DNA of 64,000 bases from Phoronis australis (lineage: Eukaryota > Animalia > Phoronida): positions 687,393-751,392 of the forward strand of contig NMRA01000087.1 in NCBI GenBank assembly GCA_002633005.1, given 5' to 3'. The notes beneath the pieces are model-generated. The model saw only the letters and a program-made list of their open reading frames with translations. It ran no database searches and was not told where the DNA came from. The position numbers were made by a program, and so were the translations under genes. Positions 41,201-64,000 of this stretch are shown here, piece after piece; within the stretch, counting starts at the first letter, position 1, and each line of letters begins with the position of its first letter.

Positions 41201-44200
41201 TGTCTGTCTGTTTTTGATTCTGTTACAGCCAGTTTGTGAACTTCCGTGACTCCAAGTTGACACGCATTCTTCAGAACTCTCTCGGTGGCAACTCCAAGAC
41301 GGCTATTATCTGCACAGTCACTCCAGCATCCATAGACGACACTCTGTCTACACTGAAGGTTTGTGACCTATCCCGATAATTTCAAATTATGACTACAGAT
41401 GCCTGTTGCAAAACTCTTTGCAGTGGCACTTACTTTCGTAAGCAGACGTCCTGGGTGACACAAATGCCATATGTCTTCTTTTTCTGTAAATGAGCTCAGT
41501 ATTCTCTGTTCTGAATGTGTTGTGGAGTGACTTGTTTTTTTCTGTTTGGGTGTTATACATAGCAGGGGCGGATCCAGTATTTTGAGTTAGGGGGGCCAGG
41601 GCAGAGTATTAGCCAGGATTTTGCCGTCTGACATTCGCACCCCCGTACTGCCAAATGGAATCTGGGAGAATTTTAGGGAGGCCATGGCCCCCTTGGCCCC
41701 CTCTAAATCCGCCACTGCATAGTATTAAAGGAAATAGTCCTCCTATCATTATTACTCACATTACTCTGCCCTGTGTGGGAGTTAAAAGAAGTCTGATGTC
41801 TCTTGTGATGCATCAGATGTGCGCAGGTCTCAAGGTTAGGCCCATTGCACGAAATACCTGAGCTAAAATTCACAAGAACCCTGTTATTGATCAACAAATT
41901 CTTTGTGATAGAAGTTTTCGAGTGTTCCTGTCTATTTTAAGAAAATTGACAGACTTTTTTGTTGCTATGCAATATATGTTGGAGGCATCTAATGGTGCCA
42001 TCCAGTTGCTTGCTCTTGAGCCTATAAAGAACTAGGAAAGACTCTAACAGGCATTTAGGCCACCCATATCCCCAGTGATGTGTCTGCGTCGGGCTAGGTT
42101 ACAGTGACCTGTTAAAATTTGAATGTCTTGTGCCCAATCTGTCTAGACCCAAAGAGTTTTCTGAACCTTTTGGTTTGATCACATTGGAAGAGTGTGAGAG
42201 TGATATGTAGTAGGTATCACTACTGTTCAAATTCCTTTTCACATTCCTCTGTTCTGTGTAAGAGTTATACATAGTAGGGAGATAACCGTGCTATCACCAT
42301 CGTTCATGTTGCTTTGTTCTTTCAGTTTGCCAGTCGTGCGAAGACAATCACCAATAAACCTAAAGTCAATGAGGTCCTGTCAGATGAAGCCCTGCTCAGA
42401 CGTTATCGCAAGGAGTTGAACGATTTGAAGAAAAAATTGGAATCCGTAAGCTCTCTTTTAATAAATCTTAAATTTATTGAGGCAAACTATTCTGCAAATT
42501 TTGGCAAGGCAGAACTCAAACTCATTCCTTTGAGCGCCATCAAGTCTCAGAGAACTGTGGCAATGTTTGGCAAGTAAATTGTCCAGCCCCTCTAGATTAT
42601 AGGCAAACCAAAACAGAAGACATTTTAGGCAATAGTTAATTAACTGTTTTAAAAAATTGTCTTCTACACTCGGCATAAAGTCTCCACAGAAATCCCAGCA
42701 AAAACTGATGTGTGTGTCCAAACAAACTAGAAATCCATCCATTGTGGTATGGTTTTCTAAATATGCTTTTTAGGTCACAATGTATTATTTTCGTTTAACA
42801 TCTTTCCTCATCAGAGTGGCGTGATTGAAGAGCAGAAGGAACGTGAGAACTTGCAGCTCCGCCTGGAGGAGAAAGAGAAGTCTGAACAAGAACTACAGGA
42901 CAAGATTGACATGTTGATGAAGTTAATCTGTGTCTCAAGCGTGCCCAATGAGCCGCAGGAGAAACCTAAGGTAAGGAGTTCTGGCGGTTTGAAAAATGGA
43001 TTTTCACTGTAGCTGTTACTGCAGTTAGAAATGTTGCATTTTTTGTTGAACGGAAAATCTAACTTTTGGCCCGGTACTATTGGTTCCACAGCAAAAAGAT
43101 GCTTCCAGTTAATTTTAGTACCAGTTTCAGCCCTCAAAGTTTTAAGTGTTTTCTAAAATATTTTGTTGTGGAGTAACTTATTGGTTCATCTTTTATACCT
43201 TTAAGAACCAACATTAAGCAACCAGAATGCCCTGTTGGGTCATTCTAAGCAATCAGATGGAACACATATTGAAATCTTCATGTCAAACATATTCTAGTTA
43301 TTTCAATATTTGGCAATTAAAAGCACTCAGATACCTAGGTTTGCTATGTGCTTTGTGCATTTGCATATTAATTTTGGTTTTATCAAAAATAAATTGTGCA
43401 AAATTTTGCCTTCACGATTGAATTTTAAGATGAACGTACCAACAGTAAAAAATATGTGCATCAAAAGCCAGAGATGAAAAGGTGCCCGAGGTTGGCGAAA
43501 AAATTTCATTTATTACGACAATACCATATTGCCATGTCTTGCCATGCCCATGGGCCTATATCAGAAATAATGCCTTTTTATTTTTCGTGGCCATTTTGTA
43601 CCCAAGTGGTTCACATACTGGCACATGCGCCTAAGTTTCACATATAAGCCCAAGTAATGCATATAGGCGCACCTGCTTTCTTTTCAAAAATTGACTTGCT
43701 TTTCATGAACAACATTTTATTTGAAATATACAACTTATAGGTCTTTATATCTTAAATTCGTTAATGACTGTAATAAATCTGTCCAACGTGGGTAAAACCA
43801 GTGTTGGCCTTATATCTGAAATACTGCCTTTTTGCTGGCTTAGTGGTTCGCGTGCAGACACCTATAAGCCTAATGGCGCTGCATTATGGTATAACTACAA
43901 AGAATAGGGATGGAAATACAATACAATATGTAGAAAATAATAAATAATATCTAGTAAAGATGTGCAATAAAAGGCGCTTGCTTTTGTATTTATATACTGT
44001 CCTCATGAATGACCTTATTTCGCCCTCTGTATGATCATAAAGGACACACAACTGACTATTGTGCGACAAATATACAGTTGCAGGCACTGCCAAAAATGGC
44101 AGACAAATCCTAAAAAGCATACGAATGGCAGACAATTAAATGCAATATATGTTTTTCAGAAAAAGCTGCGCCGTGAGACCTGGTGCCCGGGCAATGCACT

Positions 44201-47200
44201 CTCTCGTAACCCCCTGTCCTCAGCACATTCCCTGGAGTTGGAACTACAGACTACGAGTAGTTGCTTAATGCCTCCACCAATGAACACAATTGCAGAGAGG
44301 TCGTTTTCTTGCTCATCCAGTTTTTCCATGAAACGGAAATCGTCTTCGAGCTCAGAGTCCCATCTTTCTGACAGCGGTTTGTACTATTTTTTATTGTATC
44401 CCTTTTATTGTAGTGTTCTATTGCATTTTTCAAATCTTGGAAAATTTCCCTGAAGACAAATTAAAATCTCTGGAATCAACGTAAAATTCGTAAAAATGTC
44501 ACAATTTTTTGCATGTTCACTCTGTTCCACAGCCTTTGCACCAATCCAGGAAGATTTCCTGGTCGAACTAGAAGCTGCTGAGGACGTTCAACGTATTGCA
44601 GATGGCTCGCTTGAGAAAAGGAAGAAAAGACGGGTTGTCCACTTTGATGACTCACCCATTGACATGACGTTTCTTGGCTCTGACGTTGCCTGTCAGACTG
44701 AGGTGTGTGATGATGTTTCGTTAATGAAGGTGGAGGCTGTAAAGGGTTGACTTGTAGAAAAAACTAACGACCCACCAATAATAAATACATATAATGAGGT
44801 TACTAAGTGTCTTTACACATGTAGTAGTACTCGTGCTAGGGTGTAGGTAAAATGTTTGTGGGAATGAGATTGGGAAATGCAATGCTCTGCTTTTTATATC
44901 AGAACAAAACTTTGCAAATGGTATTAATTCACATTAATCTCACTTGGTGACCACATTTATGGACGGAAGAAGAGTGTGCCTATAAAAATTCAAATTACGA
45001 GAGTCTTAGCTACAACTGACCGCTTGGCCAACAATAAAATGGACCCCTTGTCATTAGGTCGCGTCTGTATCTGGCAATGCGGCTTGGTAACTGAATTTTA
45101 TTTGCATTTCTCTTTCTATTGTTACCATCATGTTATCAGAGGATCATATCCACCACCTTGTCGGAAGCTGTTTTCTCAAAAAGAGACTTTTCAGTTGGGG
45201 TTGTACCATTTACTGTAGATAAATGAAGCAACTGTGTATGAGGACAAGGATATGGAAATTCAGATGTTGATTAAGACGTTGAACGAGACCAATGAGGAGC
45301 TGGCAGAAAAGACGCGTCTGCTTGAGGAGGCGGGGCCAAGTCAAGAACAGACGATCGCACAACTCACCAAGCGCAATGCTGAGTTGGAAGCTGTGGTGGC
45401 TGAAAACAAGATGGCTGAAAACAAGATGGTTGAAAACAAGATGGCTGACAGCAGGTGGGTCAAGGAGTGCAGTTCTGGCTTGGTAAACATGCATTGCAGC
45501 CTCTTTGATTTCTTTAAAAGCCTAGTTTATATTTCACAAGCCTAGATTTGACCCACATGTTGGACATGCATGCACTTTCCAGTCTAACGGATGGTAATTA
45601 TCAATATTTCAGCTGTCAATGCAAAGATCTTCAACTCGAGGTGGACACTTTGAAAGACTTGAACCATGATCTGGAGGAGAGGTTCTCCCAGATGTTTGAC
45701 GACTGTGAGGGGTACAAAGAGGAGGTGCAGGGTCTAACGACCAAATTGAGGAATTCCGAGGCCAAAGTGTCACAGCTACGGTCTGAACTAGAAGAGAAGT
45801 GTCAGTCGGGAGATACCAACGACGTTGAAATGCTACAAGGACTCATAGAAACTTTACATGACAAGGTGTCTGCGTATGAGACTGAGGTTGCCGTCTTGAA
45901 AGAATCACTGATTAGCAATGACAGCACCAAATCTCAGGAAGCCTCAACAAGTGAGTTGCAGAAAGAAATCGTGTCTCTCAATATGAAGATTGAAGAGCAA
46001 AAACTGGAGATTGAGTCCCTTCACGAAGTTAACACCCACTTGGAGAGTATGAGAATACCCGAGGGTGGCAACAAAGAGGAAGGAGAGACAGAAGATTTGA
46101 AACTGGAGATTGAGGCACTGCGTGAACTTGTGGGCGAATATGAGAAACAGCTAGACAGGAAGTTGTCACCTGAACCTGATAGCGATTCACTGCTGGAGAA
46201 GGCAAGGCTTGATTTGGAAACTAAAATGTCACATGTTACATATTTTAATTGGAATATGCATTTGTTCATCCTCAAGATAAAATGTTATTGATTTTAAAAT
46301 AAGATAATAATGACAGAACCATCTTTTAAAATCTTTTGTCTGGAATTTTTTTATTGTTTTCATTATGACGAGTTATAGTTCCTAATTATACACTTTGGAC
46401 TAAATGTAGTTTATTTATGGATTACCTCTTCTGTTAGATTCATCCCTGCAAACATGATTTATTCCGGTACAAAATTTTAACTTATGACCCAAGTTGTTTG
46501 ATGATGTACACGGCATTGTCAATAAGAATAGGTAATTCATTTTTTACTTTTATCAAAAGAATATTCAAATCTCTTGCTCTTTCTGATGAGTGTGTTTCAA
46601 ATTAATATTGAAATGATTTGGGTGACTTTTCATACACCTACAGGCACGTAACCTGGAGACCGAGTTATTGACCACTGTCCAGTTGTGTGAGCAGATCTCT
46701 TCAGAGAAAACCAAGTTGGAAGAGGAGGTGTTAGGACTTCGACAGGACAACGTTAACTTGTAAGTGGAAAGATGTCGGAAATATTTGTGTTAACGCCGAG
46801 GGAGTGAAAATAAGCCTGAAACTGTGTGAGGAGTAGCCTACCGCACACGGGCATTGTAATAATAAAACTTCAAGAAATCAAAAGCGAGCTCATTTAAACC
46901 AAATATGTAGAGCTTGCATGGGTAATGGGACTGGGACTATGTTCACGGTATCTTAAAAATTGTTCACTATTATCGTCATTTTCATGCAAATGCAAAATGC
47001 CCACCTTTTTTCTTCCCCATTTCCCTGAAAGTGTAGAAAGATGTTTATATTTCTATGGGAAAGTTTTGTATAAACAATGCGTTGAACTATCTCAGCTGTT
47101 ATGGATATTCTCATCGATTAACAATTGGGATATTATAATTCTTGGCTGTTTAGTATTACTTTAAGGACGTAATAAAGTAACAAATGTAACCCTTAATTTT

Positions 47201-50200
47201 GTTCTTTACATTGTCGTTTTATGTCATCAGCAGTGCCCACTTGCAGTATGTCTCTTGTCCCTCCCTCCCCAAACCATAGGCATTGTACACGCATGAAAAT
47301 GGTCGCAACATAAGGCTACTTTGCACATTGGTGATAAATCTTGTATTTTTGATTACACTGGCCTATGATCTAGACCACCAAACAGTAACTCTAGTCACAT
47401 TGCAGGCTTCCTGTAATTTGAAGGCTTTCATCTGCTGCTGTTGCTTTTCAGGTGCATTGTAGGATAGTTGTGAACTTGTAAACATCGAGTAACATCACAT
47501 AACTTGTTGACGTGTATTGTTATTAACAATTGTGTTTTAATTGATCAAATTTAACTTCAGCACTTAATGGATGAAGCTTGCCTTGAGAATCTTTTACATG
47601 AAAGATTTGCATTTTGAAACTCGCTTCAATCTTATATTTTTCTATGATGGTTTCTCTGTTGCACCTACACCAAAATGTATGTACAGTGAATTTGTGCTTT
47701 CAATTGTGGTGCGCTCAAGTGATAAGTTGCATTCTTTGTCACACGTCATCACGTTATCCGTGATGTCTCTGGATGTTTACAAGTTGACCTCTTCCCACAA
47801 TGCATTTGAAAAACGACAGTCGCTTTGCTAGAGAAAATCCTCCAAATTTCATACCAATTTGACTACAGGTATTCAGTTTTTGAGCCTAGTCTTGGTCAAC
47901 ATTTGGTGGTTAAGCAAGACATTCACTGTGCCCTGTACTGTGAACGGAATACATGAATACTGGGTAGTATTCAATGGGTTGTTTTTGCTCTGCCAAATGC
48001 ACTAATGCCTTACTTATAGCTTCTCTCCAGTTTTGTTCGGTTGCATTGATCTACTATTTGTATTTACTGTTGTCAGGAAAGCCAAGTGTGAAGACTTAAA
48101 GGAACAGAATGAGAAGAAAGCAGCTGAACTTCGTGAGCTGCATGAGTTCACGGCATTTGAAGCAGGACTTCAAGATCTAGAGGTCAGATCTACAAACCAA
48201 TGTTTCAGTTTTAATTTGATTGTGTTTTTTGCATTTGCCTGTTGGTCAAGCTTAACCTTGTGCAACATAAGGTCAGAATATAGAGTTGTTGACAGTGTTC
48301 AAAATTGAATGCCTTTTTTGACAGTGGCACAGTTTGTTATACAGTGGGCACAAAATTTGATGTATGGTTCTGTTGATCAAAATTTAAAATCTCATACGTC
48401 ATCATAATTACATGTGCTTGTTATGGAAAAAACTTTTGTTGGACATTGAAAGTGAATGCAGAAATGAGATTCGTGAAACTGGTTATTGGACCTACTATGT
48501 TACTGTTGCTGCATGTACAGTTAATAAGAACCAAGAGAGTAACAGTTAGAGCTGGCTTTCTTCTTCTAAAATAGCATTTCAGTTGAACCTGCTTGATATC
48601 ATATCCTCAGTTTTGACGTAAATTATGATGATGTGCAAGCAGTTCCATTAAGCGGGTTTGGACTTGGTGGTGATCAGAACCACTCTTATAAGCTAATCGT
48701 GCTATGTGGATAGCCTCGGAGTAAGACAGGTAAACAGGAAATGAATTTAAGATGAATTAAGTTAGTCTTTAGTCAGAAAAATGAAGATAAACTTGCTCAT
48801 AAGTGTGTGAAAATTAATTTTGCAGTTTTTAATGACAGTAGCCAGGAATATGATTGATGAATCATTGCATTATTTTACGTGGATTTAATGGGAAATGATT
48901 CGTTTTTGATATTTCGTGACTATAACTGGGATATCCTATTACCTGATATGCATTAAGTAGGCTCCACTGTGCTTTTCCTATAGGTTCAGTTCCAAGATGA
49001 AATCAGCGGCCTGAAGAAACAACTTGAAGCTACGCAGAAAGAACTTGAAGTGGCTAAACAGGGGAAGAGTACCATTGATGTGTTGGATGGGGTAGGTTGG
49101 ATATAACTACATTGCTATTCTCTCTGTTTAATACTCACTGTAAAATTGGGGTTTTAGTTTGCGTTTTTTTATTTAGACGTTTTGTCCTGCCAAGTCAGTG
49201 CTGAGAAACATCTTTTTTGTACATCACACAACAATTTTTATCTCCTTCAGATAATCAATAATTTTTTGCAAAAACACCAAATTTTTGATACAGGTAAAAT
49301 TAACTTGTTTAAACTTTTTGTAAAATTACTAGCTGTACACCATGTTTCAATTGTTTGTTTAACACAGCATGTGCCTGTAAATGATACTTCGTCTCAAACA
49401 AGCGTGGTTAGTTGGTAGTGGATTTACATTTTCATGCTGAGATCTTGTTTATGTTTTAGTCCTCTGATGAAGAGCTTCGTCAGAAGATGGCATCTCTAAA
49501 GAAGAGCGAGTCGGACGCTGAGAATGTACTTTTGGACGTAAATCGTACGCTGGCAGAGAAATTGGACGAGATCGCAGCTCTGAAGCAGACAATTGTAAGT
49601 ACATCCTATACTTAAGTGACCTTTTTTACGGACAATGTTGGTCAGATTGACCCCTCAAGACCTGTTTTACCTCAGAGTAAAAAATCTAAATTATTTGATG
49701 CAGTGTGATCAAGAGGTGAAGATGAAGAAGTTGGAACAGAGCCAGGCAGACTTTGACTCATACCTGGAGATGGAGAGGGCAAACCGTCGACGGACGGAGG
49801 CAGACCTGCGCAGCCAGCTACAGACCACTTACCAAGAGAACACGGAGCTACAGGCACAGTTGGACGTCGACAGCAGTCAGAGAGAGGCTCAGCTGCATAC
49901 TGAAGTGAAGACAACGAGGGAGGAGGTTGTGAGGTTAGTGAAGATCCTCATTCAGTGTCAACACATGCATGGGTAAAATTTGAAATGTGTGAATATTCAG
50001 ACTTTGAGATATATTTATCATTTTTAATTTTGTTTGGTTAGGTCATGGCTTAATTCTTTCATTCCTCACCAGTTGTTGGTCATACTGTGTCTCTGTAAAA
50101 CTATCTAGCTGTTTATTCGTTATTTTTATTCATTGTAGCCTTTCTGAAAAGTTGCAGCAAGCACAGGTTGACTTAGAAGAAGCCGTGGATGGGGTATGGT

Positions 50201-53200
50201 TGATTTCATGATAAATTGTCTTCTGTTTGCTTGAGACTTACATTTTAACCATTTTTATAACAGTGCAAAACATAAACAAAAGTGTTCAAAAAAGTATATT
50301 CTTTTACAGACCTGGGGTCTGTTTCATGAATGTTACACTTCACACAGCTATTTCTGAAAAACACTTAACACATTTCGAGAGACGTGCCAAGTTCCTGAGA
50401 AAATACACTAAAATGCTAGTTACTGTGACAATTTTTATTAATCATTTCTAGACTGTGATGCGCACATAATCACTTTGCTAAACATTTGTTCAGAAATTAT
50501 GAAGTGAGAGCATATTTCTGTCTTAAGTCTTGAGTCACTTTCATGAAACTGACCCAAGGATTTATGATAATGTAAATTGTATGTACGCGTTGACCATGAC
50601 AGGAGTTTCTGGATGTTTCTGTCATTGAATTGCGCCATTGTTAAAGCTTCTATTAAATTGTTTCATTGTAATTTAAGGTTATGTAAGTCATTATTGACAT
50701 GTCTGCATTTAACCAAATATGTATAAAACTAAATTTTCACTGAACAAGAGTGGAAAGCCTATAGAGTCAATTCATTTTTAGACTATCCATCATTTATTTG
50801 GTCATGTGACCATGTCTTTTTGGTAAAAGTTAGCAAAAAATAAAGACATATTAATAAGCCAAACAATGATATTAGTAACATGATCAAATTCTATTTGATA
50901 TTAAATGCTCGCGATGAAATCTCAAAAACAATGTTACAGTTTTATAAATGATCATTCATATTTGTTTTACACAATTTTTGATTTTTTCATGAAAATCATA
51001 AACTATAAGTCCTATTTTTATACCCCCTTATGCAAACGTAGAACTTTTTAAAAACAGGTTCTTAACATCGTATCATAGAACAGTGCATAAAGCCTAATAT
51101 CAGAAAGTTTTGTTTCAATCCGATCAAGTTTTTTGAGTTATGATGTTCAACATAACCTTAACAGACAAAAAAAGCAGCAAATAGTGCTGATTTGTGTTGT
51201 TTTTTTTTGCATTGTATTACCGTTTTTTTGTTTGTTTTTTTTTTTTTGAAGTCAAAACTTTATTCTAGCTACGAGTCTCAATCCCCTCCCTCACTAAAAC
51301 ATACACTTTGCACATTTGATAATAACAACAACTGTGGACAGTCCACTAGCTGATAAGGCATGTGTGGGCTGCAGGGCCAGGTTAATGGTTATTTGTGAAT
51401 GCGTGGATGTCTTTGGTCATTCATCTTGTCACTGCTGATCCTCTGTTAAATGCTTGGATGCTTTAAAGAGTCAAAAGTATTCTTCAATACCATATTCCAC
51501 TCAAAATACTTTCAGTGAGTTATCTGACTGCGTTTATATACATTCTGTAGTCAGTCAGTTACATTGTATCATAATCATGCCTTTAAGGTAGGATTTGAAA
51601 TGGGATATGTGTTTAATTTATTTACATTGCCAATGACCAGTATTCGTTTGCAGTCATTGGAAGTCAACGAACAGCTACGCCAGTGTCAGGCAGAGCTTTC
51701 TGCCAAGGATAATGAGGTGGCTGCACTCAAAATGGAAGTGAGGAATCTAAAAGTCATTGTTGAGGAGAATCAGCATGTGGAGACTGCAGCTGTCAATAAA
51801 AGTGTCGCAAAGTCCGTTGACGAAACTCTGGAGTTTGACGTTACAGTGTCCAGCAACATGGCATTCAACTCAGAAGGACAGTCAGAGGTAGAGTTATATA
51901 ATGTGAAATCATGGCAGGTGGCAGCTGTTTTGTACCTGACTTAAAAGAAGGTTGACACTTATGTAACTAACCATGAGTAACTGATATTTGAATGCAGAGA
52001 CTCAGATTGTCTTAAAAAATTATTGCCTATGTCATTCGCCTCGTGTTTGTTGTAGATGTTGCCTCACGAAACCTTGAGCGATCTTTATAGACGTTGGTAT
52101 TGTATACTCACTGTAATTCAAAAATCTCACAACCTCAAAGTTGTTTTGCCTGCAATTGATAGTTTTGAATGTCAACAAGTGATGATGCTGAATTAGTCAA
52201 CCTATGCAAATTATGTATTTTATGGTTTTTGGCTCCGTGATAACTTGCTGCAGTCTTATGTTACACACTGTTTTGTGCAGTGGGCATTTTTACAGAAATA
52301 AATTGATTGATGATGAATGTTGACATTGTTCGTCTATCCTGCATTTAGGTGTATGTCAGTACACTAGTTGTCATATACAACTTTGTATATAACATTTTAG
52401 CTCCAAAAATTATGTCCAAACACCTGTCTTTACACTTTGATTGAACGTATATGAAAGTTTCACTGTAGATTGGACTTAGCATCCTCAATTTCTCCATCCA
52501 GGCTCTTAGTCTACAAGCTGAGCTGCAGGCAGTTCAACTCAACACTGTTGGAGAGAGTGATGATGACAAAGAAAATTCAAAACTCAGTTCCCCAGGTACT
52601 GATCATAAGGTTTAGTTGTGCTGATAGCTATATGAAGACCAGTGGATAGATTTTTGATTAATGCGTTGACAAAAGATGCTAGTCCTTGTAACTTGTGCAT
52701 GCATGGCTGCCAACTGTTACGGATTTATTCGTATTCTACATACTGTCCAGGCAAATCATTACCTATGGACTTTTAAATGTTACAGATTTCGAACATTTAT
52801 TTCCCTTCAAAAATCAAATGAAAATTAAAATATCTTTTAAATTGTCAACATTTTGAAGCACAAGATCGACAAAGATTGAGGCAGGAAGTACCGTAAAATG
52901 ATGGAAATTTTCAAGAACGTAACATCTGACCAATAAGATGTATCCTGAGTACCAGATGTAGAATACAACTCACAATTTACATACAAAATTTCCCTTTTGT
53001 GATTGATCAATTGCAATTATTTGTGAAGGACAGACCAATGAAAAATGCGCTTACTTGGTTTTGCATTGTGGGATATTGTACGCTTTGGAATTTGTGTTAA
53101 GATGTCGAGAGCGAAATTTCGAAGACAAGTATACTGATGCATTAGATTACGTTTAGAAAACGGGGCTGCTTTTAATCCCGCTGTCTTCAGCATTGAGAAC

Positions 53201-56200
53201 CCTGATGCTTACAATACTGTTATGGATCAGGAATTATGAGATATTGGTATTTGTGGGGAGGTGGTGGTGTGGGAAGAAATCAACCATTTTGACAATAAAA
53301 GCCAAAAAACATCGATGTGATGAGCTGAATTATTACGTAATGTTGCGTTTTAGTTAAATACTATTTGAAATTGAAAATTTTTGTTTTGGTGTGTATCAAT
53401 CCATCTTGTGATTGAATTAAGACTTTCAAACAATGTTGGAAACCATACAAGTTCTGACTTGCAAAATACATACTTTTAACATGAAGATTATAGATTATGT
53501 CCTTAATGAGTTAACAGCCCTGTGCTTGTGATTAAAACTTTCAAATTGAGTTTGGTCTCGTGTGCTCAAAAGTTGATTCAGTGTTCACTGGTTATTGATT
53601 CTTGTTGTAATTTCAGACTCTGAAGAAATGGAAGCCACCGTGGCAAGTCTTAAGGAACAAGTGGATTCTTTGACTGCTCGTTGTCAAGAATTAAAAGACA
53701 ATAAAGAGCAGATGGAGGCAATGGTTGATCATTGGAAGCCCAAAGTTAGTGAAATGCAGCATCAGCTTGACCAATACCAGGCCTTGGAGAAAGAGAGTAG
53801 TGAGAGAGGGGCGGAGCTTGGGGCCGCACAGGCGGAGCTTGATGCTGTAAAGGCAGAACTTCAGGAAGCAAGGGCAAAGATATGTCATTTGATTGACAGC
53901 AATGAAGAACTGTCTAAGCGCGTGGAAGAGACAAAAATGAGTGCAAGTGTTGCAGACACAAAGGTCAACGAGGTAATTCAGAATAAGATTTTCACTAGAA
54001 AAATGAAAGTAACCAAGTACAGCTATTCATGTTTTTCAGTTGTGACATTCATTCTTTTCTATGGTGCTGAGTTTAACAACGGAAGAACAGTTGTTCTCTT
54101 TTGCAATCTGAATGCCACAAATTCACTTCATATCAAACTGAAAATTTTGAATCTAGTCATAACCTGTGGTTATCATATTTTGTTTTGCAGACAACTTCTA
54201 AGATTGAGGAGATGAAGATGGAGTTACAGCTAGCTAAAAATGAACTGACCTTCAGGTCAGTAACACCGACCAATGAGAGCAAGATGAGCGAGCAGCTGCT
54301 GAATGAAGAGAAGAAAGCATATTTGCTGCTGCAAGAAAAGTGGGTGGAGTCAATGTTGCATGTTGTCATTCAAAATGAATTTGATGTGCTTTGTTGGGGG
54401 TGTGGTTCAACTGGTTGTAATAGCTGTCCTGTGCAGTTTGAGATATGCAATTAGTTACTTAAAAGCATTTAAATGTACAAATAACCAAAACAATGACAGC
54501 AAATGGTGGTAAGTGGGATAGCTTATTTTGGAGTTTATTAGGTTTTAGCATTGTTAATTGTTATGCTCAACATTCAATGGGACTTCTTTTGAATATCCAG
54601 ATACTACAATCAGTTCTATTGCTTCTTTCATACAAGTATGGTCATTTGCTCTAAGCTGGTCCTGTGTGCTGGCCTGGTTTTGCCCCTTTGAGCAGGCACA
54701 GCTAAGTCATAGTACCAAACATCATCTAACAACAAGGAAAAGTCTATAGTGAAACTCCTCCAAAAGTCCTCATGTTGTATATATCTATGGACGTAAGAGG
54801 TTTTTGCTTTTCCTTTTGTTTAGATATGACAAGCTGTTGTCCGAGTCATCCCAGGCCAAAGGGAGGCTCCTCTCGGAGGTTAATCGCGACCTTGGCCACC
54901 AACGACAAATTGAGGAATTGGAGAAGGCATACAAAGAGCTGCAGAGTGTCTTCTCACAGATGAAGAAACAGAATAACGAGCTTATAGAGTCGCTCAATAA
55001 ACAGGTAAGAGTATGTGGTTTGACACATTTGGGTTCATTTTCTTATAACTACAATGCTCAGTTCCCTTAAAAGTATCAAAATGCACAAATATTTTCCCAA
55101 GTGCTGCATGGAATATGACTACCAGTTAATTGATTTTGTATTTCAAGAATTTCAGTATAGTGTGTTTTCAATACTTTTTGCACCTTGGTTAGAGTAATGA
55201 CGTAAAAAACAACATTGCAGCTATTGAAGTCATACTTCCATACTTATATCTCTTTTTGTTCAATTGCAACCGAGTCAAAATTGTGGACATTACTTTTTGG
55301 CAGAAATGGCTCCTGCGTATGTGTTTTCAGTGCACTGTAGGCCCTTTCATTTTGAGGTTTTTTTTGAGTTCTATGTGAAGTGTGGTGACTCACACATTTT
55401 GAAGACCTGTAGAAAGAAAGCTAGCAATATTTCTGGGTGTGTGTTCTGTTGTGATTAGCTGCTTATACCGCCTGTGTAGGTGTATGAGCTTCAGTGCAAG
55501 CTGCAAAAGTCAGAAGGTGAGCGGGAGCTTGCAGTACACCAGAACTCAAAAACGTCAGAGAAGTTGGAGTCAGTGAGGGCGGAGCTACGCAATATGGAAA
55601 CATTGCAGAGCCAGCATGCCAAGACCCCCAGCAGACAGGAAATGGATCCGCAGAAACTGGTGCAGCGCATCAAGCAGTTGGAGTTTAATCTGGATCTGAC
55701 AAGACAGAAGTCAGAAAAGTTCCAGCAGCAGGCCAAGAGTGTGACTGGTAAGTAGGAATGGAGCTTAAATTGGGTCATTGTACTGAGAGAGAGGGAGGGG
55801 GAGGGGGAGGGAGGGATTGAGGGAGAGAGGGAGAGAGAGTGTGTGTGCGTGTGTCATTTCATAAACTGCGACAAGTTCAACAGCAGGTCAGACTACTAAT
55901 TTGAATGCATTGTTTTGTTCACCAAAGTAGTTTTTGTTGTCTTAAGAAGTAAAGTATTAACTTTTGACTAACAGAAAAATGTGCTCACTATTACTGAAAC
56001 TTGTCCACGAAACGCCTTTGTTTTTCAGACATGGAAAATAAGCTGGACAGTGCCCAGTTTGCCCGCAATGACCTTCAGCGACAAGTTCGTGACCTACAGC
56101 ATAATCTTGACCTTCAAAAAGAACAACACCAGCAACTGATAGGTCGGTTCAACCAGAGTATGTCACAGTACACCAACTTGCAGCAGCACACCAACTCTCT

Positions 56201-59200
56201 TCAAGAGGAGGTCAAAAAGGTGGGAACTTGATTTCCTCTGCAGTAGAAAAGTTCAATAATTTCCTTGCTGTTGCTTGGATGTGAGATAATTGAAATAATT
56301 TAGCCACCTTCACCTTTCCAGAAGATTCCCTAATTGTTTTACGAAATGACCGCATTTTTACAACAAGGCCTTATGTTCTACTCTTTGAAATCTATGAATG
56401 AACAGTGAGTGGGCGAGACTTGGATTGTGTTTTTAGAAGATCCAAATGTTTATGACTCCCATTCTTTTTAATGACATCTCATTGGAAAGTCCCTCTTGAC
56501 GCTGAATCAAAAACAAACCTGAACATTTCACTGATAACCCTAAGAACAACAAGAGAGCAGTTAATCAAGTGAAAAGTATTTGGACAAAATGACCTGGAAA
56601 TCCCCGTAATGATGGCTAGGTGGATTCATTGACTGAGTAGTCTTCCCTCATGACCAAGAATGATATAATGGCAAAGTTAGTAAGGTGGCTATGCTATTTT
56701 GTATAAATTAGAATTTGCTGCACTCGGGGCTTGAAATTTTCCTCTTGATAGGATTTCTTTTTTCTGTTAACGGAATTATCCGCCGTGACTGGATAGCGGT
56801 AATTTGTCTGACTTTTTTTCTTGTACTGTAAAAGGATATCATGTCCTGGGGCCTGTTTCCTGAAACTTTCTGTTTTAACTAATACACAACAATCTGGCTA
56901 ACTTAAGACCAAAATGTCTTAGCCCTGATTCATGAAATTTCTTTAAGACCAAAATAATGACCAAAAATCAATCTAAGCTAAGACTGAAAGATAGTCTTAG
57001 TATACAGAATATTAAGCTTAAGATTGGACTCATAGCCTATATGACCAAAATGTATGAATATTTCATAAGCAGATATTTTCTCATCTTTTACTATTTATTA
57101 TAAGATTGGCTGCTTTCATTTCGGGAAGTGACAAACCACTGCAAATATGATACAGGGAGACTTACTTGCACAATGATGTTTTCTAGTCCAAGCTGGGCAT
57201 TCTCACATAAAAGAGATATTCACTGTATCCAAAGTGTTGTAAATAAATCTCCATTTAGAGTTTTAAGACTAAAAATATTAGTCTTGAAACTACATTTCAC
57301 ACACTGCCTCGCTTAGTGATATGAATTTACAACAGTTGGCGAACATGTAGTTTGTATGCCTACTATGTTCATAACGCGACTTGATGTCTAAGTTAAAAAT
57401 GGAAATGGACGTTGTGTTCATGAAAGGCTCTTTTCTGAATTTTTGGCTTCAATCTTATCTTAGCCCAAATTTTGGTCTTAACTTAGACTAATTTTTGGTC
57501 TTATGTCTCTAGTCACTTTTCACGGAACGGACCTCTGGTGTAAGACTTCTAGTAAACAGGCATTATTGCGTCTTCAACCAATTTTACTCTAGTTATTGTA
57601 TCTAGAGATTCACTTGTTGTTTGCAGATTAAGAAGGAGAAAGACAATATTGAAAAACACATTGACACATTGAGCAAGGAACGCAGTGATCTTCTTGAGAA
57701 AGTTGAACAGGTATACGTCATCTGTGTATACATCTTGGATAATATTTTTCATGTGATAGCACTGTATATTGGACATAGTCAGTGTTGGTGGCAGATTTCA
57801 ACTGCCTTTACATCGTCTAATTGTCTTATCTGCTAGTTGTCTTCTACTTGTCATAATACCAGACCTGGCATCTCATCTTAAGCCTTTTATTCTGTTGTGT
57901 ATTAGCTTTGAGAGTGCACACAGTAAAATTCTGCTGTTTCCATACAAAATGCTATCTGACAGTTAGCTACATTACGTTTTTTGGCTAATGAAATGCTTTA
58001 ACTGTAATGGTCTGCACTATCTGAGGGCTTCTTAGTTTATTTAGATTCTATCTGAGGGCTTCTTAGTTTATTTAGATTCTATCTGATGGCTTCTTAGTTT
58101 ATTTAGATTTTACATGTTTTGTTTCAGCTTGACTCATCACTTAAGTGTGCTCAGAGCAGTCACGTGTCATCAGACGTATTGAGTGAGATTCAACAGTCTC
58201 ACGCTGATGAGCTGCAACGTACTGTACAGACGGAGCAAGAGAAACATGCGGCACTCCTGGATGCAGAAATAACGCGCATGTCACTTGAAAAGGAGCAGGC
58301 ATTTGATCAAAAGGTGGCAGCTCTGCGGGATCAGAGCCTGGAAAAGATGAGGGAAATTGAGGCAGACTTGAAGACAAACTATGAAAAGCAGGTGAAAACC
58401 AAAGCTATGCCTAAAATCGTGCAATTTTGGAAAGAACAGCTACACAGTGAATAAACCTTTCAGTTGCCAGACTCATAAATACTGTAGCCAGACTTCCTAC
58501 TACACCAGTAACACTTTTCAGCACTATAACTGTAGATCTCTGACTGAATGAAAACACTGGGGCTTATACCTTTAAATCCAGTTGCTGAATCATGTACAAT
58601 TGGTATGGCCACAGATAAGTTACCACACCATTATCTACTGTTACTCATTGTTGATAGGCCAGTATGTTTAGCTCATAAGCCATTGGATTCTTCAGTTGCA
58701 CCAATGTAAGAGACTGTGACTGTCAGAAGAGCTCCAGAAAACTTGGAGTTCTCTAGGTGTTGCATGTTTAGCAAGAATCCTTCTTATAGAAATGCCTACA
58801 TTCAGGTAATCCCATGCCACATTTATTTCACAAACATCCTCATACTTAGGAAGTGTTTTCTACACTTAATATATTCAGAGAAGGGCTTTCATTCATTGGC
58901 AGCACCTGGTGAACACTGAGTCCTCGTTTACAATGTTCACTGGAGTAAAATCCAATTTATTCCATTTTTCCTCATGAAAATTCATGACTCAAACACAAGT
59001 GGAAAATTACAGAGTCTTGGGTGAGTATAAGTAGCTGCAAGTCTAAATCAGCACTTTAGCATTTGGATTTGAAGTTTCCATTTGGTCTCACCATGAGTGC
59101 CATACTTATCCTACAACAATGCACTGCGCGTTTTCAGGCTGAAACAATGAAAGAGGAAATTTCCAAGCTCTCTGGGGAACTCAAGCTGACTCAGGAGAAG

Positions 59201-62200
59201 TTGCTTGTTGCCGAGAGACAAGACGGTGAGATGTGTGCCAAGATGGCAGATGCCGAACTACAACTTGACAAATGGCAAAGGCAGGCGGAAGAGCTGGAGC
59301 AGAAAGTTGCGTATCTAGAGGAACAGTTCTCAGATGCTGTGAACCGATTGGAAGAGGCGGAGGAGTCCCGTCTGCAACATGCCGAACAGCTTGAGGCAAC
59401 CAAGGTATGTTGATCTCCATCGTCTAGACTAAACTGATTGACAAAACAGCCTTTGGTAAATTGTTACTTTTCGTGATTGAGATTACTGAGAATTTAGCTG
59501 GATATTTGTCAGAACAAACACTTTTGTATTGACGTAAACAACGGTTTCAGTTGTTGACATGAAGTCTACAGCAAATTTTTTGAACCAACATTTACGTGTG
59601 ATCACCATAATATTGTCATCATCAGCAGCAATGACAACAGTACTATTGTTCTGTAAGTTTTTTGACACCATTAATACAAAATTAACAACTTTTATGTTAA
59701 TAAAAAGAATTTTTCATTACATCTTGCCTGCTTTTCATGTTCCTCTGGACTAAACTGATAACAAAAGAGCAGAGGCAAAGGATAAAGAAGGCTATAATGG
59801 TGCGGTAGTGTTTTTAAAGGTGTTTAATGCTGAATTTTAGGGCAGAATTAAGAAAGTCGATGAGAAGCTGCAGCAGGTTTTGCATTGGTTGCCATTCAAT
59901 GCTTTTGTTATTTGGGAAACAACTATTCTGTTGAGATCTTGGGTTGTTTGTGTTTCAAATAGACTTGTATCATTCATCTGTCACTGTTATTGTTTGTGTT
60001 AGGTGTGCTAAAACTATTTAATCTTTTAATTTAAGTAGAATCAATAAATGGCGTGAATCTTTCATAGTATTTTGTTTAGTGGGAATCGCTTTCATTAAAA
60101 CTTCGAGATTGTTGTGTTTTTACATTGTGTTTCAAGGCAATGATACTTTTTGACAGCTCTGTCAACATAAATTATGTTTTTCACAGTTTTTGTTTTTCTG
60201 TCCAGTTACTGATACCAGTCATGTTGCATGGTTCTTAAAATGTATTTTATTCTCAGTTGCAAAACCAGCAGACGTCAGACCATAGCTCTCAGCAGGTTGT
60301 TACCCTGACAACCGAACTGGAGTCAGTTAAAACACAACTGAATGAAGCGAAAGAAGAGATCGACAACAACTATAAGGAGATCAGTCACATGCGTGAGTGT
60401 TGTGATCAGTCGGACAAAGAGTTGGAGGCTCAGCAGACTGCACTACGACAAGCAAGGGAGACAATTACCAAACTGGAGGTATGTCTGCTTTGTAGCAAGC
60501 AATTGTGAAATTTATTTGACACTTTTATTTCCTGAAAATTTTATTTTTTATAAAATTTAATCATCATAATTGAATCAACTTAACGTAGGAATAGAGATTG
60601 AAATGTGATCTGTGCATGCAAAGAAGACTGTGTTATAGCCATCAAGGGAAGTAATTATGTGATACTTCACGAATTTGTGTTCAACATTTGTTTGTAAGTG
60701 CTCAATGACCAAGTAGTTTCACTGCACAACCACAAGTCTTTGGTAAATAGTTACTTTGTTGAAGATGGCAACCCTCTCCATTATGATTATAAAAACTGTA
60801 GTTAGACATCTTTCAGAACAAGAATTATTTAGTGGGAATCATTAAAACTTAAGAGATTGTTGTGTTTTTGTATCGCCATTCAAGGCCATGATACATTTTT
60901 GACAGCTGTGCCAACATATGTTTTTCACAGTTTTTGTTTTTCTGTCCAGTTACTGATACCAGTCATGTTGCATGGTTCTTAAAATGTATTTTATTCTCAG
61001 CTGCAAAACCAGCAGACGTCAGACCATAGCTCTCAGCAGGTTGTTACCCTGACAACCGAACTGGAGTCAGTTAAAACACAACTGAATGAAGCGAAAGAAG
61101 AGATCGACAACAACCATAAGGAGATCAGTCACATGCGTGAGTGTTGTGATCAGTCGGACAAAGAGTTGGAGGCTGAGCAGACTGCACTACGAAAAGCAAG
61201 GGAGACAATTACCAAACTGGAGGTATGTCTGCTTTGTAGCAAGCAATTGTGAAAATTTTTGATACTTTTATTTCCTGAAAATTTTATTTTTTATAAAATT
61301 TAATCATCATAATTGAATCAACTTAACGTAGGAGAAGACTGTGTTATAGCCATCAAGGGAAGTAATTATGTGATACTTCACAAATTTGTGTTCAACATTT
61401 GTTTGTAAGTACTCAATGACCAAGTAGTTTCACTGAACAACCACTAGTCTTTGGTACTGTTACTTTTGTTGATGATGGCAACCCTCTCCATTATGATTAT
61501 TAGTACTGTAGTTAGACATCTTTCAGAACAAGAATTATTTAGTGGGAATCATTAAAACTTTAGAGATTGTTGTGTTTTTGTATCGCCATTCAAGGCCATG
61601 ATACTTTTTGACAGTTGTTCCAACATATGCTTTTCAAAGTTTTTGTTTTTCTGTCCAGTTACTGATACCAGTCATGTTGCATGGTTCTGTAAATGTATTT
61701 TATTCTCAGCTGCAAAACCAGCAGACGTCAGACCATAGCTCTCAGCAGGTTGTTACCCTGACAACCGAACTGGAGTCAGTTAAAACACAACTGAATGAAG
61801 CGAAAGAAGAGATCGACAACAACCATAAGGAGATCAGTCACATGCGTGAGTGTTGTGATCAGTCGGACAAAGAGTTGGAGGCTGAGCAGACTGCACTACG
61901 AAAAGCAAGGGAGACAATTACCAAACTGGAGGTATGTCTGCTTTGTGGCAAGCAGTTGTGAAATTTATTTGACACTTTTATTTCCTGAAAATTTCATTTT
62001 TATAAAATTTAATCATCATAATTGAACCAACTAAACGTAGGAATAGAGATTGAAATGTGATCTATGCATGCAAAGAAGACTGTGTTATAGCCATCAAGGG
62101 AAGTAATTATGTGATACTTCACAAATTTGTGTTCAACATTTGTTTGTAAGTGCTCAATGACCAAGTAGTATCACTGCACAACCACAAGTCTTTGGTAAAT

Positions 62201-62679
62201 AGTTACTTTTGTTGATGATGGCAACCCTCTCCATTATGATTGTAAAAACTGTCATTAGACATCTTTCAGAACAAGAATTATTTAGTGTGAATCATTAAAA
62301 ACTTAAGAGGTTGTTGTTGTGTTTTTGTATCTCTATTCAAGGCCATGATACTTTTTTCACACCTGTGCCAACATATGTTTTTTGTAGTTGTTGTTTGTCT
62401 AACCAGTTACTGGTACTAGTCATGTTGCATGGTTATGTAAATGCATTTTAGTCTCAGCTGCAAAACCAGCAGACGTCAAATCACAGCTCTCAGCAGGTCG
62501 TTACCCTGACAACAGAACTGGAGTCAGTTAAAGCTCAACTGAGTGAAGCGAAAAAAGAGATAGACGACGGCTGTAGGGAGATTAATCATATGCGTGAGTG
62601 TTGTGATCAGTCGGACAAAGAGTTGGAGGCTGAGCAGACTGCACTACGAAAAGCAAGGGAGACAATTACCAAACTGGAG
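32224..62679 (+). CDS. CENPE: Centromere-associated protein E (kinesin-7), 3'-incomplete; exons 32224-32273, 32549-32643, 33050-33139, 33583-33701, 34036-34146, 35405-35489, 36481-36548, 36791-36862, 37102-37235, 38029-38158 (duplicates 40305-40438, 41229-41358), 42326-42445, 42815-42970, 44160-44376, 44533-44702, 45219-45454, 45613-46201, 46644-46759, 48077-48182, 48984-49091, 49460-49594, 49704-49933, 50139-50193, 51654-51887, 52502-52595, 53617-53972, 54191-54339, 54824-55004, 55480-55747, 56029-56219, 57627-57710, 58128-58391, 59138-59404, (59841-59876 uncertain), 60257-60478, 61001-61222, 61710-61931, 62458-62679
   Basis: N-terminal kinesin motor: VAVRVRPL, P-loop [16 protein letters not shown], switch I NERSSRSH, switch [25 protein letters not shown]. 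Kinesin-7 neck [17 protein letters not shown] and RRETWCPG, then long coiled coil. Phases are consistent over 6168 nt (2056 codons, one copy of the duplicated pair, uncertain exon excluded) with no stop. Confidence 0.93.
34310..34572 (+). mobile_element. MITE family C copy (degenerate)
   Basis: tgtttcatgaaa ... tttctgtcttaagtctcagatcacttttcacaaaacagacct-cag, similar to 50315-50555. Confidence 0.5.
35555..35886. mobile_element. Unclassified MITE-like element with 18-bp TIRs
   Basis: acctggcaaataaggcca / tggccttatatgccaggt (1 mismatch); internal taaggcc/ggcctta motifs. Confidence 0.55.
37781..37906. repeat. Intronic inverted repeat with 47-bp arms (second copy 40980-41105)
   Basis: tgcgaatattttgtcc...tttttggtcacatcac / gtgatgtgaccaaaaa...ggacaaaatatttgca. 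Confidence 0.85.
38349..38504 (+). mobile_element. MITE family B (CAGGGGCGGATCC...CCACTG)
   Basis: TIRs caggggcggatcc / aaatctgccactg; counterpart of 41563-41717. Confidence 0.75.
39107..40077. mobile_element. Unclassified insertion interrupting duplication copy 1 in the polypyrimidine tract, truncated by the N
   Basis: Copy 1 leaves homology after ctttgt (39106), whereas copy 2 continues tctttcag|exon 42326; no ORF. Confidence 0.5.
40305..41358 (+). CDS. CENPE: Second copies of CENP-E motor exons (40305-40438, 41229-41358), same 88 aa
   Basis: Intact splice sites; all differences from 37102-37235 and 38029-38158 are synonymous. Confidence 0.7.
41563..41717 (+). mobile_element. MITE family B, 5-bp TSD CATAG
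   Basis: catag (41558-41562) caggggcggatcc...aaatccgccactg catag (41718-41722). Confidence 0.8.
45399..45448 (+). repeat. Coding 15-bp tandem repeat, 3.3 copies ([17 protein letters not shown])
   Basis: gctgaaaacaagatg units within exon 45219-45454. Confidence 0.9.
50315..50555. mobile_element. MITE family C (Harbinger-like), full length
   Basis: TIRs gggtctgtttcatgaa / ttcatgaaactgaccc. Confidence 0.7.
55785..55854 (+). repeat. (GA)n/GGGA-rich plus (GT)n simple repeat
   Basis: gagagagagggagggggagggggagggaggg...gtgtgtgtgcgtgtgt. Confidence 0.9.
56849..57534. mobile_element. Harbinger-like non-autonomous element related to family C, 3-bp TSD CTG
   Basis: ctg|gggcctgtttcctgaaa ... tttcacggaacggacct|ctg; repeated subterminal taagac (left) and gtctta (right) motifs. 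Confidence 0.7.
58017..58109 (+). repeat. 31-bp minisatellite, 3 copies, just upstream of an acceptor
   Basis: ctatctgagggcttcttagtttatttagatt x3, one substitution in copy 3. Confidence 0.92.
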
Positions 62680-62720
62680 GTGCGTCTACTTGATAGCAAG
62701 CAATTATGAAACTTTTATTT
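60075..62720 (+). repeat. Tandem array of four exon+intron units (periods 744, 709, 748 bp), each with a 222-nt phase 0-0 CENP-E exon
   Basis: Exons 60257-60478, 61001-61222, 61710-61931, 62458-62679 are all open, with tctcag acceptors and GT donors; the introns are homologous. Confidence 0.95.
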
Positions 62721-64000
62721 TTAAAGGCGAAGGCAACCTTTTTCCATGTCATTTTGAGCTAAAATATGGTTGGTTGGTTATCCTAGACATATTTTCCACT
62801 TAATTACAGCATTTCGTAATTTTATTAATTACTCGTCCGCTCTTCCGGAAGTGACGTTTTAGGAGGCAAGCATTTCGCGCCAATTTCTTTTCATATAGTC
62901 TGACTGTGAGAGCTGCCGAGTCAGTCATTGTTCTACCTCGGTTGTGTTAAGTTCCGTCGTCGTTTGCTTTCATTTACTAGTCAGTCAACATGCCACACTG
63001 TTACTGCGTACCAGGATATACTAATTATCGGCTCACGCGCGCTTTGGGAGTACCTTTGCATCGCTTTCCGATGGATGACACACTTCGCCGTACTTGGCTC
63101 GTTCGTGTGAAGAACGCAGCGTTACCCGTCCACGCAACGTACAAAGCAGTGGAGAATTACCGTGTGTGTGGCAAGCACTTTCTGCCGTCCGATTACGAAA
63201 GGGATTTGTACGCTGAACTGATGAAGGTCCCTGCGAAACAACGCCTGAAGAAGGATGCCATTCCGTCTGTGTTGATTCCCGGCAGTGCCCCGTCGCCACC
63301 CCCGAGAAGTGCGTTTTTGAAGCGAGAAGCCTCGCGAGCTGTGGCCAGTACAGTGACTGGAGCCAGTGGAGGCACTTCATCTACTGTCACCCGTGCCTCC
63401 GAACGTACCCCAGAGCGTGCAATTCCTGGAACCAGTAGTGATTCGCCCTGTGCTGTTTTCTCCAGCCCAGAGCCTCTAAGCAGCCCTGCAGCGATATTGA
63501 GTAGTGGGAGTGATTACAGGCCCAGTTCGACACCCAGTGAAGAGGACAGTTCGTCGTCCAGTGAACAGATCGGTGAGCCAAACTTTGATAAGTTTATTGT
63601 GGACTTGTCTAAAGTGTTGGAGCTATTTAGAAGGTGCCAGGTGTGTGGCGAGGGAGTCACACGACACAATGTAAGCAGTTTGGGTGCTCAGGTCACCATC
63701 CAGTGGGAGTGTGTCACGGGACACTCTGGCAAGTGGGACAGTTGTTCCTCTGTCCGTGGTATGCCGGAGGTCCACTTAACCATGTCCAGTGGTGTGCTCT
63801 TCACTGGAAACACGTTTCAGTCGGTGAAGACAATGATGGACTTTGGAAAAGTCAAGTTTTTTTTTCGAAAACAACATTCAACAACATTCAGAATTCCTAT
63901 TTAATACCAGTTGTCAATGACGCATACATGTCACAACATCTCGAGTTGGTGGCGGAATTCATGGAGAAGGAGAACTTGTCTGACTCACCAGGGCGGTCCG
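62721..64000 (+). mobile_element. Kolobok-type DNA transposon, 5' part, inserted at TTAA in a CENP-E intron
   Basis: Homology to the array intron ends at TTAA|AGGCGAAGG; a THAP-transposase ORF follows. Confidence 0.75.
62990..64000 (+). pseudogene. THAP-domain Kolobok-like transposase, disrupted
   Basis: THAP (CYCVPGY...HRFP...W...VCGKHF...LKKDAIPS), S/T-rich linker, KFIVDLSKVLELFRRCQVC...C..GH...W zinc-finger region. Frameshift at a T9 run (63857-63865), after which another frame reads SKTTFNNIQNSYLIPVV...ENLSDSPGRS. Confidence 0.75.

What the first reader, a model, noticed from the sequence alone, without database searches (positions are those of the whole stretch)
60075..62720. CENP-E stalk extended by a tandem array of duplicated 74-aa exons
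Seen: four exon+intron units, each with an open phase 0-0 exon of 222 nt encoding a polar linker ([12 protein letters not shown]) plus heptad-like helix, all with intact splice sites. Intron 2 lacks a ~35-bp block present in introns 1 and 3, so the units are distinct paralogues rather than one sequence copied by the assembler. Established: CENP-E is a kinetochore kinesin whose long flexible coiled coil acts as a tether; coiled coils rise about 0.15 nm per residue, so one module is at most about 11 nm. Inference: copy-number change or exon skipping could tune the reach of this motor in fixed steps. 74 is not a multiple of 7, so each junction should be a hinge or stutter. More units may lie beyond the transposon. 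Best candidate here for an undescribed system.
Basis: partly seen in the sequence, partly recalled or inferred. Interest (0 to 1): 0.8.

Follow-up and report, generated by a model that had tools for sequence, protein, structure and literature searches.

The report
Repeated exons lengthen CENP-E's stalk
In this invertebrate, four near-identical copies of one exon are spliced one after another into the message for the chromosome-moving motor CENP-E, adding about 220 residues to its long stalk; similar young repeats occur in CENP-E of lamp shells, fish, turtles and songbirds, so this is likely ordinary, tolerated length drift and not a purpose-built tuning device.

Summary
The array is real and expressed. 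Four phase 0-0 exons (60257-60478, 61001-61222, 61710-61931, 62452-62679) lie in the CENP-E stalk. RNA reads from two runs join module to module 3.4 times as often as they cross a single-copy junction (95% CI 2.4-4.9), i.e. about four modules per message. Reads leave the last module into a new in-frame exon, and none listed skips the array. DNA contig depth fits 3+1 copies, with no fifth unit right behind the transposon. Corrections: exon 4 is 228 nt (upstream AG), the intron-2 deletion is 32 bp, and that deletion alone would not exclude a haplotype artefact, which this assembly likely has at 40078. The copies show conversion or unequal crossing-over, and RNA reads hint that the array differs between individuals. 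It is not a new system: 35 of 167 long CENP-E relatives carry repeats at least 80% identical (31 in the stalk), homogenised within species in fish. The scan noted the same in two cartilaginous fish. Four paper searches found no description of it. No evidence for regulated skipping or adaptive tuning of reach. New member of a known kind; interest 0.3.

The parts
32224..59404 (+). CENP-E (kinesin-7) gene upstream of the array: 32 modelled exons, aa 1-1760 (motor, neck, RRETW motif at aa 414, coiled-coil stalk)
   Evidence: Open 36-exon model of 2058 aa to the end of the array, no stops, all introns GT-AG but one GC-AG. Pfam Kinesin; best PDB hit CENP-E. Only junctions from 55747 onward were checked in RNA.
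60075..60827 (+). Repeat unit 1 (753 bp); exon 60257-60478, 74 aa
   Evidence: RNA joints from 60478 into the next module, 17 reads in X5 and 7 in X6
60828..61537 (+). Repeat unit 2 (710 bp); exon 61001-61222; its downstream intron lacks a 32-bp block
61538..62280 (+). Repeat unit 3 (743 bp); exon 61710-61931, identical to exon 2
   Evidence: 0 of 222 differences
62281..62720 (+). Repeat unit 4, the diverged edge copy; exon 62452-62679 (228 nt, 76 aa, upstream AG); all 19 differences from exon 3 lie in the first 132 of the 222 shared nt
   Evidence: (joints into 62452); single-copy contig depth in X1 and X2
62721..64000 (+). Kolobok-type DNA transposon inserted 42 bp into the intron after exon 4: TTAA at 62721-62724, AGG terminus, THAP ORF 62981-63901; runs off the window
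   Evidence: loose ends at 62721, very high depth; THAP E 8e-11

Best explanation
Four tandem copies of one in-frame exon are spliced in series into CENP-E mRNA, and they likely represent tolerated lengthening of a loosely length-constrained stalk, likely made by one old duplication and kept alike by unequal crossing-over or gene conversion. Shown: the copies, their inclusion (about four per message on average), a clean heptad pattern over residues 14-73 of each module, a mosaic pattern of differences, and similar arrays in other animals' CENP-E. Inferred: (1) an old duplication of the exon with about 180 bp upstream and 350 bp downstream, whose edge copies are 9-21% diverged in intron; (2) later expansion and homogenisation of the inner units, which differ by 3-6%; (3) survival because phase 0-0 keeps the frame and the dimeric coiled coil only needs to be long and flexible; (4) weak purifying selection keeps each module a coiled coil. 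The protein would gain 224 aa, at most 33 nm, with a register break and probable soft spot every 74-76 residues.
For: Module-to-module joints number 34 (X5) and 22 (X6), against five single-copy junctions summing to 44 and 38; pooled ratio 3.41 (95% CI 2.39-4.85); three internal junctions p=0.48, two p=0.002. Exit reads into a new in-frame exon: 28 in X5, 5 in X6. Contig depth of the shared exon part is 128-130 against 43-55 single copy in X2, 28 against 11.7 in X3, and 22 against 6.6-10.6 in X1. The 19 exon 3/4 differences leave the last 90 nt untouched (simulated p=0.0006). Exons 2/3 differ at 0 of 222 sites, their flanks at 26 of 486 (p=6e-5). pN/pS for exon 3 v 4 is 0.063/0.169 (Fisher p=0.035). 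Heptad a positions are hydrophobic in 9 of 9, d in 6 of 9. 35 of 167 homologues of 900 aa or more have 40-aa repeats at least 80% identical, 125 of 167 at least 50%. Lingula has five 82-aa copies with no significant match to this module (best E 0.059). In fish, within-species identity of the repeat core is 82-93% against 52-78% between genera. Apparently full-length vertebrate records run from about 2084 to 3354 aa.
Against: Neutrality was not tested directly; pN/pS below 1 shows constraint on sequence and says nothing on copy number. Exons 2 and 3 are identical and all four share their last 26 nt or more, so short reads cannot exclude minor skipping of single modules. Read numbers are small and come from 18-19% of two runs of one study; control and array counts come from two lays with different likeness cut-offs (90, 85). 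Cutting the stalk by 85% does impair CENP-E (PMC4116301, passages), so length is not free. The homologue set is mostly birds, holds several isoforms per species and one informative invertebrate, and some of its repeats may be assembly errors (P0049 likely is). Identity of exons 2/3 at synonymous sites alone is not significant (0 of 47, p=0.15).
Confidence: 0.7

Rival explanations
1. Copy number is under selection and sets the motor's reach (or the strength of its auto-inhibition) in steps of about 10 nm.
For: The stalk matters for activity and congression (PMC4116301, passages). Modules keep heptads and show pN/pS of about 0.37. Arrays arose independently in several lineages.
Against: One step is about 4-5% of the 230 +/- 25 nm measured for Xenopus CENP-E (PMC2364708, passages). 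Unit sizes vary from 71 to about 300 aa among species, and total length varies by over 1000 aa. No phenotype or correlation is in hand.
Confidence: 0.13
2. Regulated exon skipping makes CENP-E isoforms with different numbers of modules.
For: All modules are phase 0-0, so any subset is in frame. Database isoforms of loggerhead turtle CENP-E (P0207, P0211) differ by exactly one 124-aa repeat (annotation only, near-identical repeats can be mis-mapped). All 10 entry reads in X5 and 8 in X6 begin with the first letter of exons 2/3, not of exon 1.
Against: The mean is 4.4 modules per message. Exon-1-type 3' ends and exon-4-type 5' ends both appear at about single-copy frequency, and no listed joint or loose end links 59404 to the post-array exon (2 loose-end rows were not shown). 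The first-letter difference is as easily an allele.
Confidence: 0.12
3. The array is an assembly artefact, or has a wrong copy number, from haplotypes laid in tandem.
For: This assembly very likely has such an artefact in the same gene (36876-39106 / 40079-42317, at the N at 40078). Exons 2 and 3 are identical. No contig spans the array.
Against: There are four distinct units and no N; depth is 2-3 times single copy on shared parts and single copy on unit-specific parts; module-to-module joints occur in RNA from another study. The DNA runs may be the assembly's own sample, so they are not independent.
Confidence: 0.05

Closest known systems
CENP-E / kinesin-7 stalk of Xenopus and human (PMC2364708, PMC4116301; passages read)
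   Same: N-terminal kinesin-7 motor followed by a very long discontinuous coiled coil; the array is an ordinary stretch of such a stalk.
   Different: Xenopus breaks are mostly Pro/Gly segments, whereas this module's break is a 13-residue polar stretch without Pro or Gly. The passages read mention no stalk repeats ('repeat' occurs 0 times in PMC2364708).
Internal stalk repeats in database CENP-E of Lingula anatina (P0031, five 82-aa copies), Thamnophis (71 aa), ray-finned fishes (3-9 copies of a shared core in six of seven proteins), turtles (124 aa) and songbirds (77 and about 295 aa)
   Same: Young, near-identical tandem modules in the stalk, homogenised within a species.
   Different: No sequence match to this module and a different place in the stalk, so independent origins are likely. 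Exon structure in those species was not checked, and RNA support was checked only here.
Tandem duplication of symmetric (phase 0-0) exons with serial inclusion (general knowledge; recalled examples nebulin, titin, LPA kringle IV-2)
   Same: In-frame exon+intron units, concerted evolution, diverged edge copies.
   Different: Only four units; no shown copy-number phenotype.
Mutually exclusive exon arrays from tandem duplication (PMC6071210, search listing only)
   Same: Origin by tandem exon duplication.
   Different: Here the copies are spliced to each other, not chosen one at a time.
Length-conserved coiled-coil rulers such as kinesin-1, kinesin-5, myosin-2, ROCK, Ndc80 (PMC5082667, passages)
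   Same: Coiled coil used as a spacer.
   Different: Those keep their length across vertebrates; CENP-E does not (about 2084-3354 aa). The review does not mention CENP-E.

Membership tests
CENP-E (kinesin-7) | N-terminal kinesin motor whose closest relatives are CENP-E | tested here: met
   Pfam PF00225 on 3 of 3 core motor exons; PDB best hit CENP-E, 60.9 v 42.6 bits for the next family and 47.6 v 44.7; most named top homologues are annotated CENP-E; 65% identity over the motor to Lingula P0031. No tree was built.
CENP-E (kinesin-7) | RRxTW motif behind the neck (its role as Aurora/PP1 site is recalled, from no call) | tested here: met
   RRETW at aa 414; 54 of 57 long homologues carry R[RK]xTW
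CENP-E (kinesin-7) | Very long discontinuous coiled-coil stalk | tested here: met
   Open model of 2058 aa to the end of the array; stalk exons match only coiled-coil families weakly; heptads in the module
CENP-E (kinesin-7) | C-terminal kinetochore-binding and microtubule-binding tail; kinetochore localisation | not testable with these tools
   The tail lies beyond the window and no genome is held; RNA shows only that the frame continues past the array
Tandem symmetric-exon duplication with serial inclusion | Homologous exon+intron units, same phase at both ends, copies joined to each other in mRNA | tested here: met
Mutually exclusive exon array | One copy per transcript | tested here: not met
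   56 module-to-module joint reads in two runs
Regulated length-tuning cassette | Module number differs by tissue or stage | tested here: inconclusive
   Estimates of 4.9 (X5) and 3.9 (X6) modules have overlapping intervals; identical exons prevent phasing with 151-nt reads
Kolobok DNA transposon | TTAA target, AG/RR terminus, THAP domain (PMC6004289, passages) | tested here: met
   left end only
Kolobok DNA transposon | DDE core, H2CH finger, right terminal repeat and second TTAA | not testable with these tools
   The element runs off the window at 64000

The most novel reading that the evidence does not exclude
CENP-E is an accordion motor: across animals its stalk is repeatedly rebuilt by lineage-specific exon arrays under concerted evolution, module number or order segregates within species (hinted here by reads that do not fit the window's order of copies), and selection or splicing uses these steps to set kinetochore reach or auto-inhibition, possibly biasing chromosome segregation.
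Probability: 0.15. Interest if true: 0.65.

Novelty: new member of a known kind. Interest (0 to 1): 0.3.

Why it matters
By itself it is a well-supported example of a common process. Its value is comparative: it adds an independent invertebrate case, with RNA support, to a pattern (CENP-E stalks growing by homogenised internal repeats) that my paper searches did not find described. It sets CENP-E apart from length-conserved motors. If copy number segregates within the species, it gives natural length alleles of an essential kinetochore motor with which to test how much stalk length matters.

Tried and rejected
No whole genome is held, so the tail and the far side of the transposon could not be read directly. 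A homologue search with the module found none (60 candidates, none at E<=0.01, only proteins of 131-2000 aa). A 197-aa stalk exon found no relative among 1.84 billion representatives. So no near relative was available to date the duplication. Self-BLAST of homologues reported no repeats; this was a method failure (off-diagonal hits suppressed), replaced by a diagonal scan with shuffles, whose background was 12-18 of 50. The profile search meant to fetch full-length invertebrate CENP-E returned vertebrates and Lingula only. The module has no significant match elsewhere in the upstream stalk (best E 0.08). AlphaFold on one module cannot decide hinge versus stutter, because the junction was not modelled and single chains favour helix. 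Paper searches: CENP-E + coiled coil + tandem exon duplication (208 papers with two of the terms; none of the 20 listed held the third); CENPE + tandem exon duplication (0); CENP-E + duplicated exons (0); CENP-E + tandem repeats + stalk + evolution (5; one read in passages, not on this); CENP-E + internal repeats (7, 6 listed, none on this by title or abstract start); some searches gave only general background. The library lacks most subscription papers, and I opened no supplements; the sizes of the 'long' and 'medium' Bonsai constructs are in a supplementary figure I did not see. Rejected: mutually exclusive splicing; a single unit; a fifth near-identical unit right behind the transposon; transposon-driven duplication (it sits in unit 4 only).
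Full report
Observation. The repeat is present as described. Four units start at 60075, 60828, 61538 and 62281 (753, 710, 743 and at least 440 bp). Each holds an open exon between AG and GT in phase 0-0: 60257-60478, 61001-61222, 61710-61931 and 62458-62679. Exons 2 and 3 are identical, exon 1 differs from them at 4 of 222 nt and exon 4 at 19. Intron parts differ by 3-6% among inner units and by 9-21% at the edges. The block missing from intron 2 is 32 bp (60590-60621 in intron 1). There is no N in the array.

The gene. Exons from 32224 onward join into an open frame of 2058 aa up to the end of the array, 36 exons without a stop; the array is aa 1761-2058. Three motor exons hit Pfam Kinesin, and the two tested against the PDB have human CENP-E as best hit. 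Most named top homologues are annotated CENP-E. The RRxTW motif, found in 54 of 57 long homologues, sits at aa 414. Of 17 motors compared, Lingula is closest (65%), which fits a lophotrochozoan; I did not determine the species.

Artefact check. The array differs from that case. It has four distinct units and no N. Contig depth is 128-130 on the part shared by exons 1-3, 91-107 on intron parts shared by two units, and 43-55 on unique parts including exon 4 in run X2; X1 and X3 agree (22 v 6.6-10.6; 28 v 11.7). These depths are rough, the runs are one sample that may be the assembly's own, and no contig spans the array.

Expression. Of three raw RNA runs laid (18-19% of each read), X5 and X6 cover CENP-E and X7 does not. 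Four upstream single-copy junctions have 9, 10, 6, 9 reads (X5) and 5, 11, 8, 6 (X6). The entry into the array has 10 and 8, and module-to-module joints total 34 and 22. The pooled ratio is 3.41 (95% CI 2.39-4.85), or about 4.4 modules per message; two internal junctions are rejected (p=0.002) and three fit (p=0.48). Reads leave the module end into an exon that is not in the window and stays in frame over the 30 letters shown (28 reads in X5, 5 in X6). No listed joint or loose end bypasses the array (2 loose-end rows not shown). Mutually exclusive use is therefore excluded. Minor skipping of single modules cannot be, because exons 2 and 3 are identical.

Variation between individuals. X5 and X6 carry changes found in no window copy (60412, 60438; offset 29 of exons 2/3 in 14 of 46 and 23 of 36 reads). 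All their entry reads start with the first letter of exons 2/3, while 2 and 4 reads join a module end to a start with exon 1's first letter. This does not fit the window's order and hints at rearranged or converted arrays in these animals. Alleles or back-splicing are alternatives, and no DNA of the same individuals was available.

Beyond the array. A Kolobok-type transposon (TTAA at 62721, AGG terminus, THAP domain E 8e-11) sits 42 bp into the last intron and is very high copy. A single-copy 1179-nt contig in X2 and X3 matches intron positions 60701-60794 with 11 differences from its letter 187 on. That places its start at about the insertion point, so I read it as the rest of intron 4 (inference). 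It has no match to the exon, so no fifth unit follows directly.

How it arose. All 19 differences between exons 3 and 4 lie in the first 132 nt (simulated p=0.0006 for a gap of 90 nt). Exons 2/3 are identical while their flanks differ at 26 of 486 sites (p=6e-5; p=0.15 on synonymous sites alone). Diverged edges and homogeneous inner units are what unequal crossing-over and gene conversion produce (established knowledge; mechanism inferred). Exon 3 v 4 has pS 0.169 and pN 0.063 (p=0.035), and 8 of 9 amino-acid changes avoid a/d positions, not clearly more than the 5 in 7 expected. Exon 1 v 2 has 1 synonymous and 3 non-synonymous changes, too few to judge.

Structure. Residues 14-73 form an unbroken heptad series (a: 9 of 9 hydrophobic, d: 6 of 9), about 8.9 nm at 0.1485 nm per residue (rise recalled). 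The other 13 residues are polar without Pro or Gly. A 74-residue period is a formal stutter; the step into exon 4 is 76. AlphaFold on one module gave a single helix with lowest confidence in the first ten residues (pLDDT 73), so a hinge is not shown. Three extra modules add 224 aa, at most 33 nm. Xenopus CENP-E measures 230 +/- 25 nm with more than 20 predicted breaks (PMC2364708, passages), and removing 85% of the stalk impairs it (PMC4116301, passages). Neither speaks to 5% steps.

Comparison. Among all 167 fetched homologues of 900 aa or more, 35 contain 40-aa windows repeated at 80% identity or better and 125 at 50% or better. Dropping one probable assembly duplicate (P0049) and three lizard tail repeats leaves 31 in the stalk: a lamp shell, a snake, six fish proteins, two frogs, nine turtle and twelve other proteins, counting songbirds and isoforms as listed. 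The set is bird-heavy and includes isoforms, so these are not independent events. Lingula has five 82-aa copies, unrelated to this module. In six fish proteins with several copies, the shared core is 82-93% identical within a protein and 52-78% between genera, the signature of concerted evolution. Two loggerhead turtle isoforms differ by exactly one 124-aa repeat (annotation only). Length-conserved motors such as kinesin-1 and myosin-2 behave differently (PMC5082667, passages). The scan recorded the same pattern in two cartilaginous fish; my own survey was run before that look-up and agrees, but those notes are not independent evidence. Searches found no paper describing CENP-E stalk arrays.

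Verdict. A real, expressed, serially included four-exon array, most likely tolerated stalk lengthening under concerted evolution (0.70); selected tuning of reach 0.13, regulated skipping 0.12, wrong assembly 0.05. New member of a known kind; interest 0.3.

Noticed in passing
window 36876-39106 and 40079-42317: A 2.2-kb duplicate (94.5%) holding two kinesin motor exons, starting right after a single N at 40078; likely two haplotypes joined by the scaffolder, one with a 971-bp extra segment (39107-40077). It would mislead gene models. No reads were laid here.
   Followed up: partly
window 9444-9547 and 9797-9900: A 104-bp 99% duplicate right after the single N at 9796; same kind of contig-joint artefact.
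   Followed up: no
window 59405-60000: Sense-strand RNA depth of 1-4 in the intron just before the array in X5 and X6, fading 3', while neighbouring introns have about 0; 4 reads cross the donor unspliced in X5. Possible intron retention or a minor transcript ending before the array (stop two codons in), which would lack the tail. Only a handful of reads, and no cluster of ends.
   Followed up: partly
window 60049-60056 and 60805-60812: An 8-nt word just upstream of the unit boundary is shared by the unique upstream flank, the inner introns and the downstream flank seen in a contig loose end; possibly microhomology at the first duplication's breakpoint. Tentative.
   Followed up: partly
window 62721-64000: High-copy, transcribed Kolobok-type transposon; its ORF loses frame near 63860-63900 in a T run and the element runs off the window.
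   Followed up: partly
window 46201/46202: The modelled 589-nt stalk exon needs a GC donor to keep frame; not checked in RNA.
   Followed up: no
window 45397-45448: A 15-bp tandem repeat (3.5 copies) inside a stalk exon gives a 5-residue repeat, a second small in-frame expansion in the same gene.
   Followed up: no
window 24241-24579, minus strand: ORF with a LIM-type zinc-finger-like stretch (by eye): a neighbouring gene transcribed away from CENP-E.
   Followed up: no
proteins P0207/P0211 and P0217/P0202: Database isoforms of turtle and frog CENP-E differ by 124 and 150 aa within their repeat regions; real skipping or mis-mapping not tested.
   Followed up: partly
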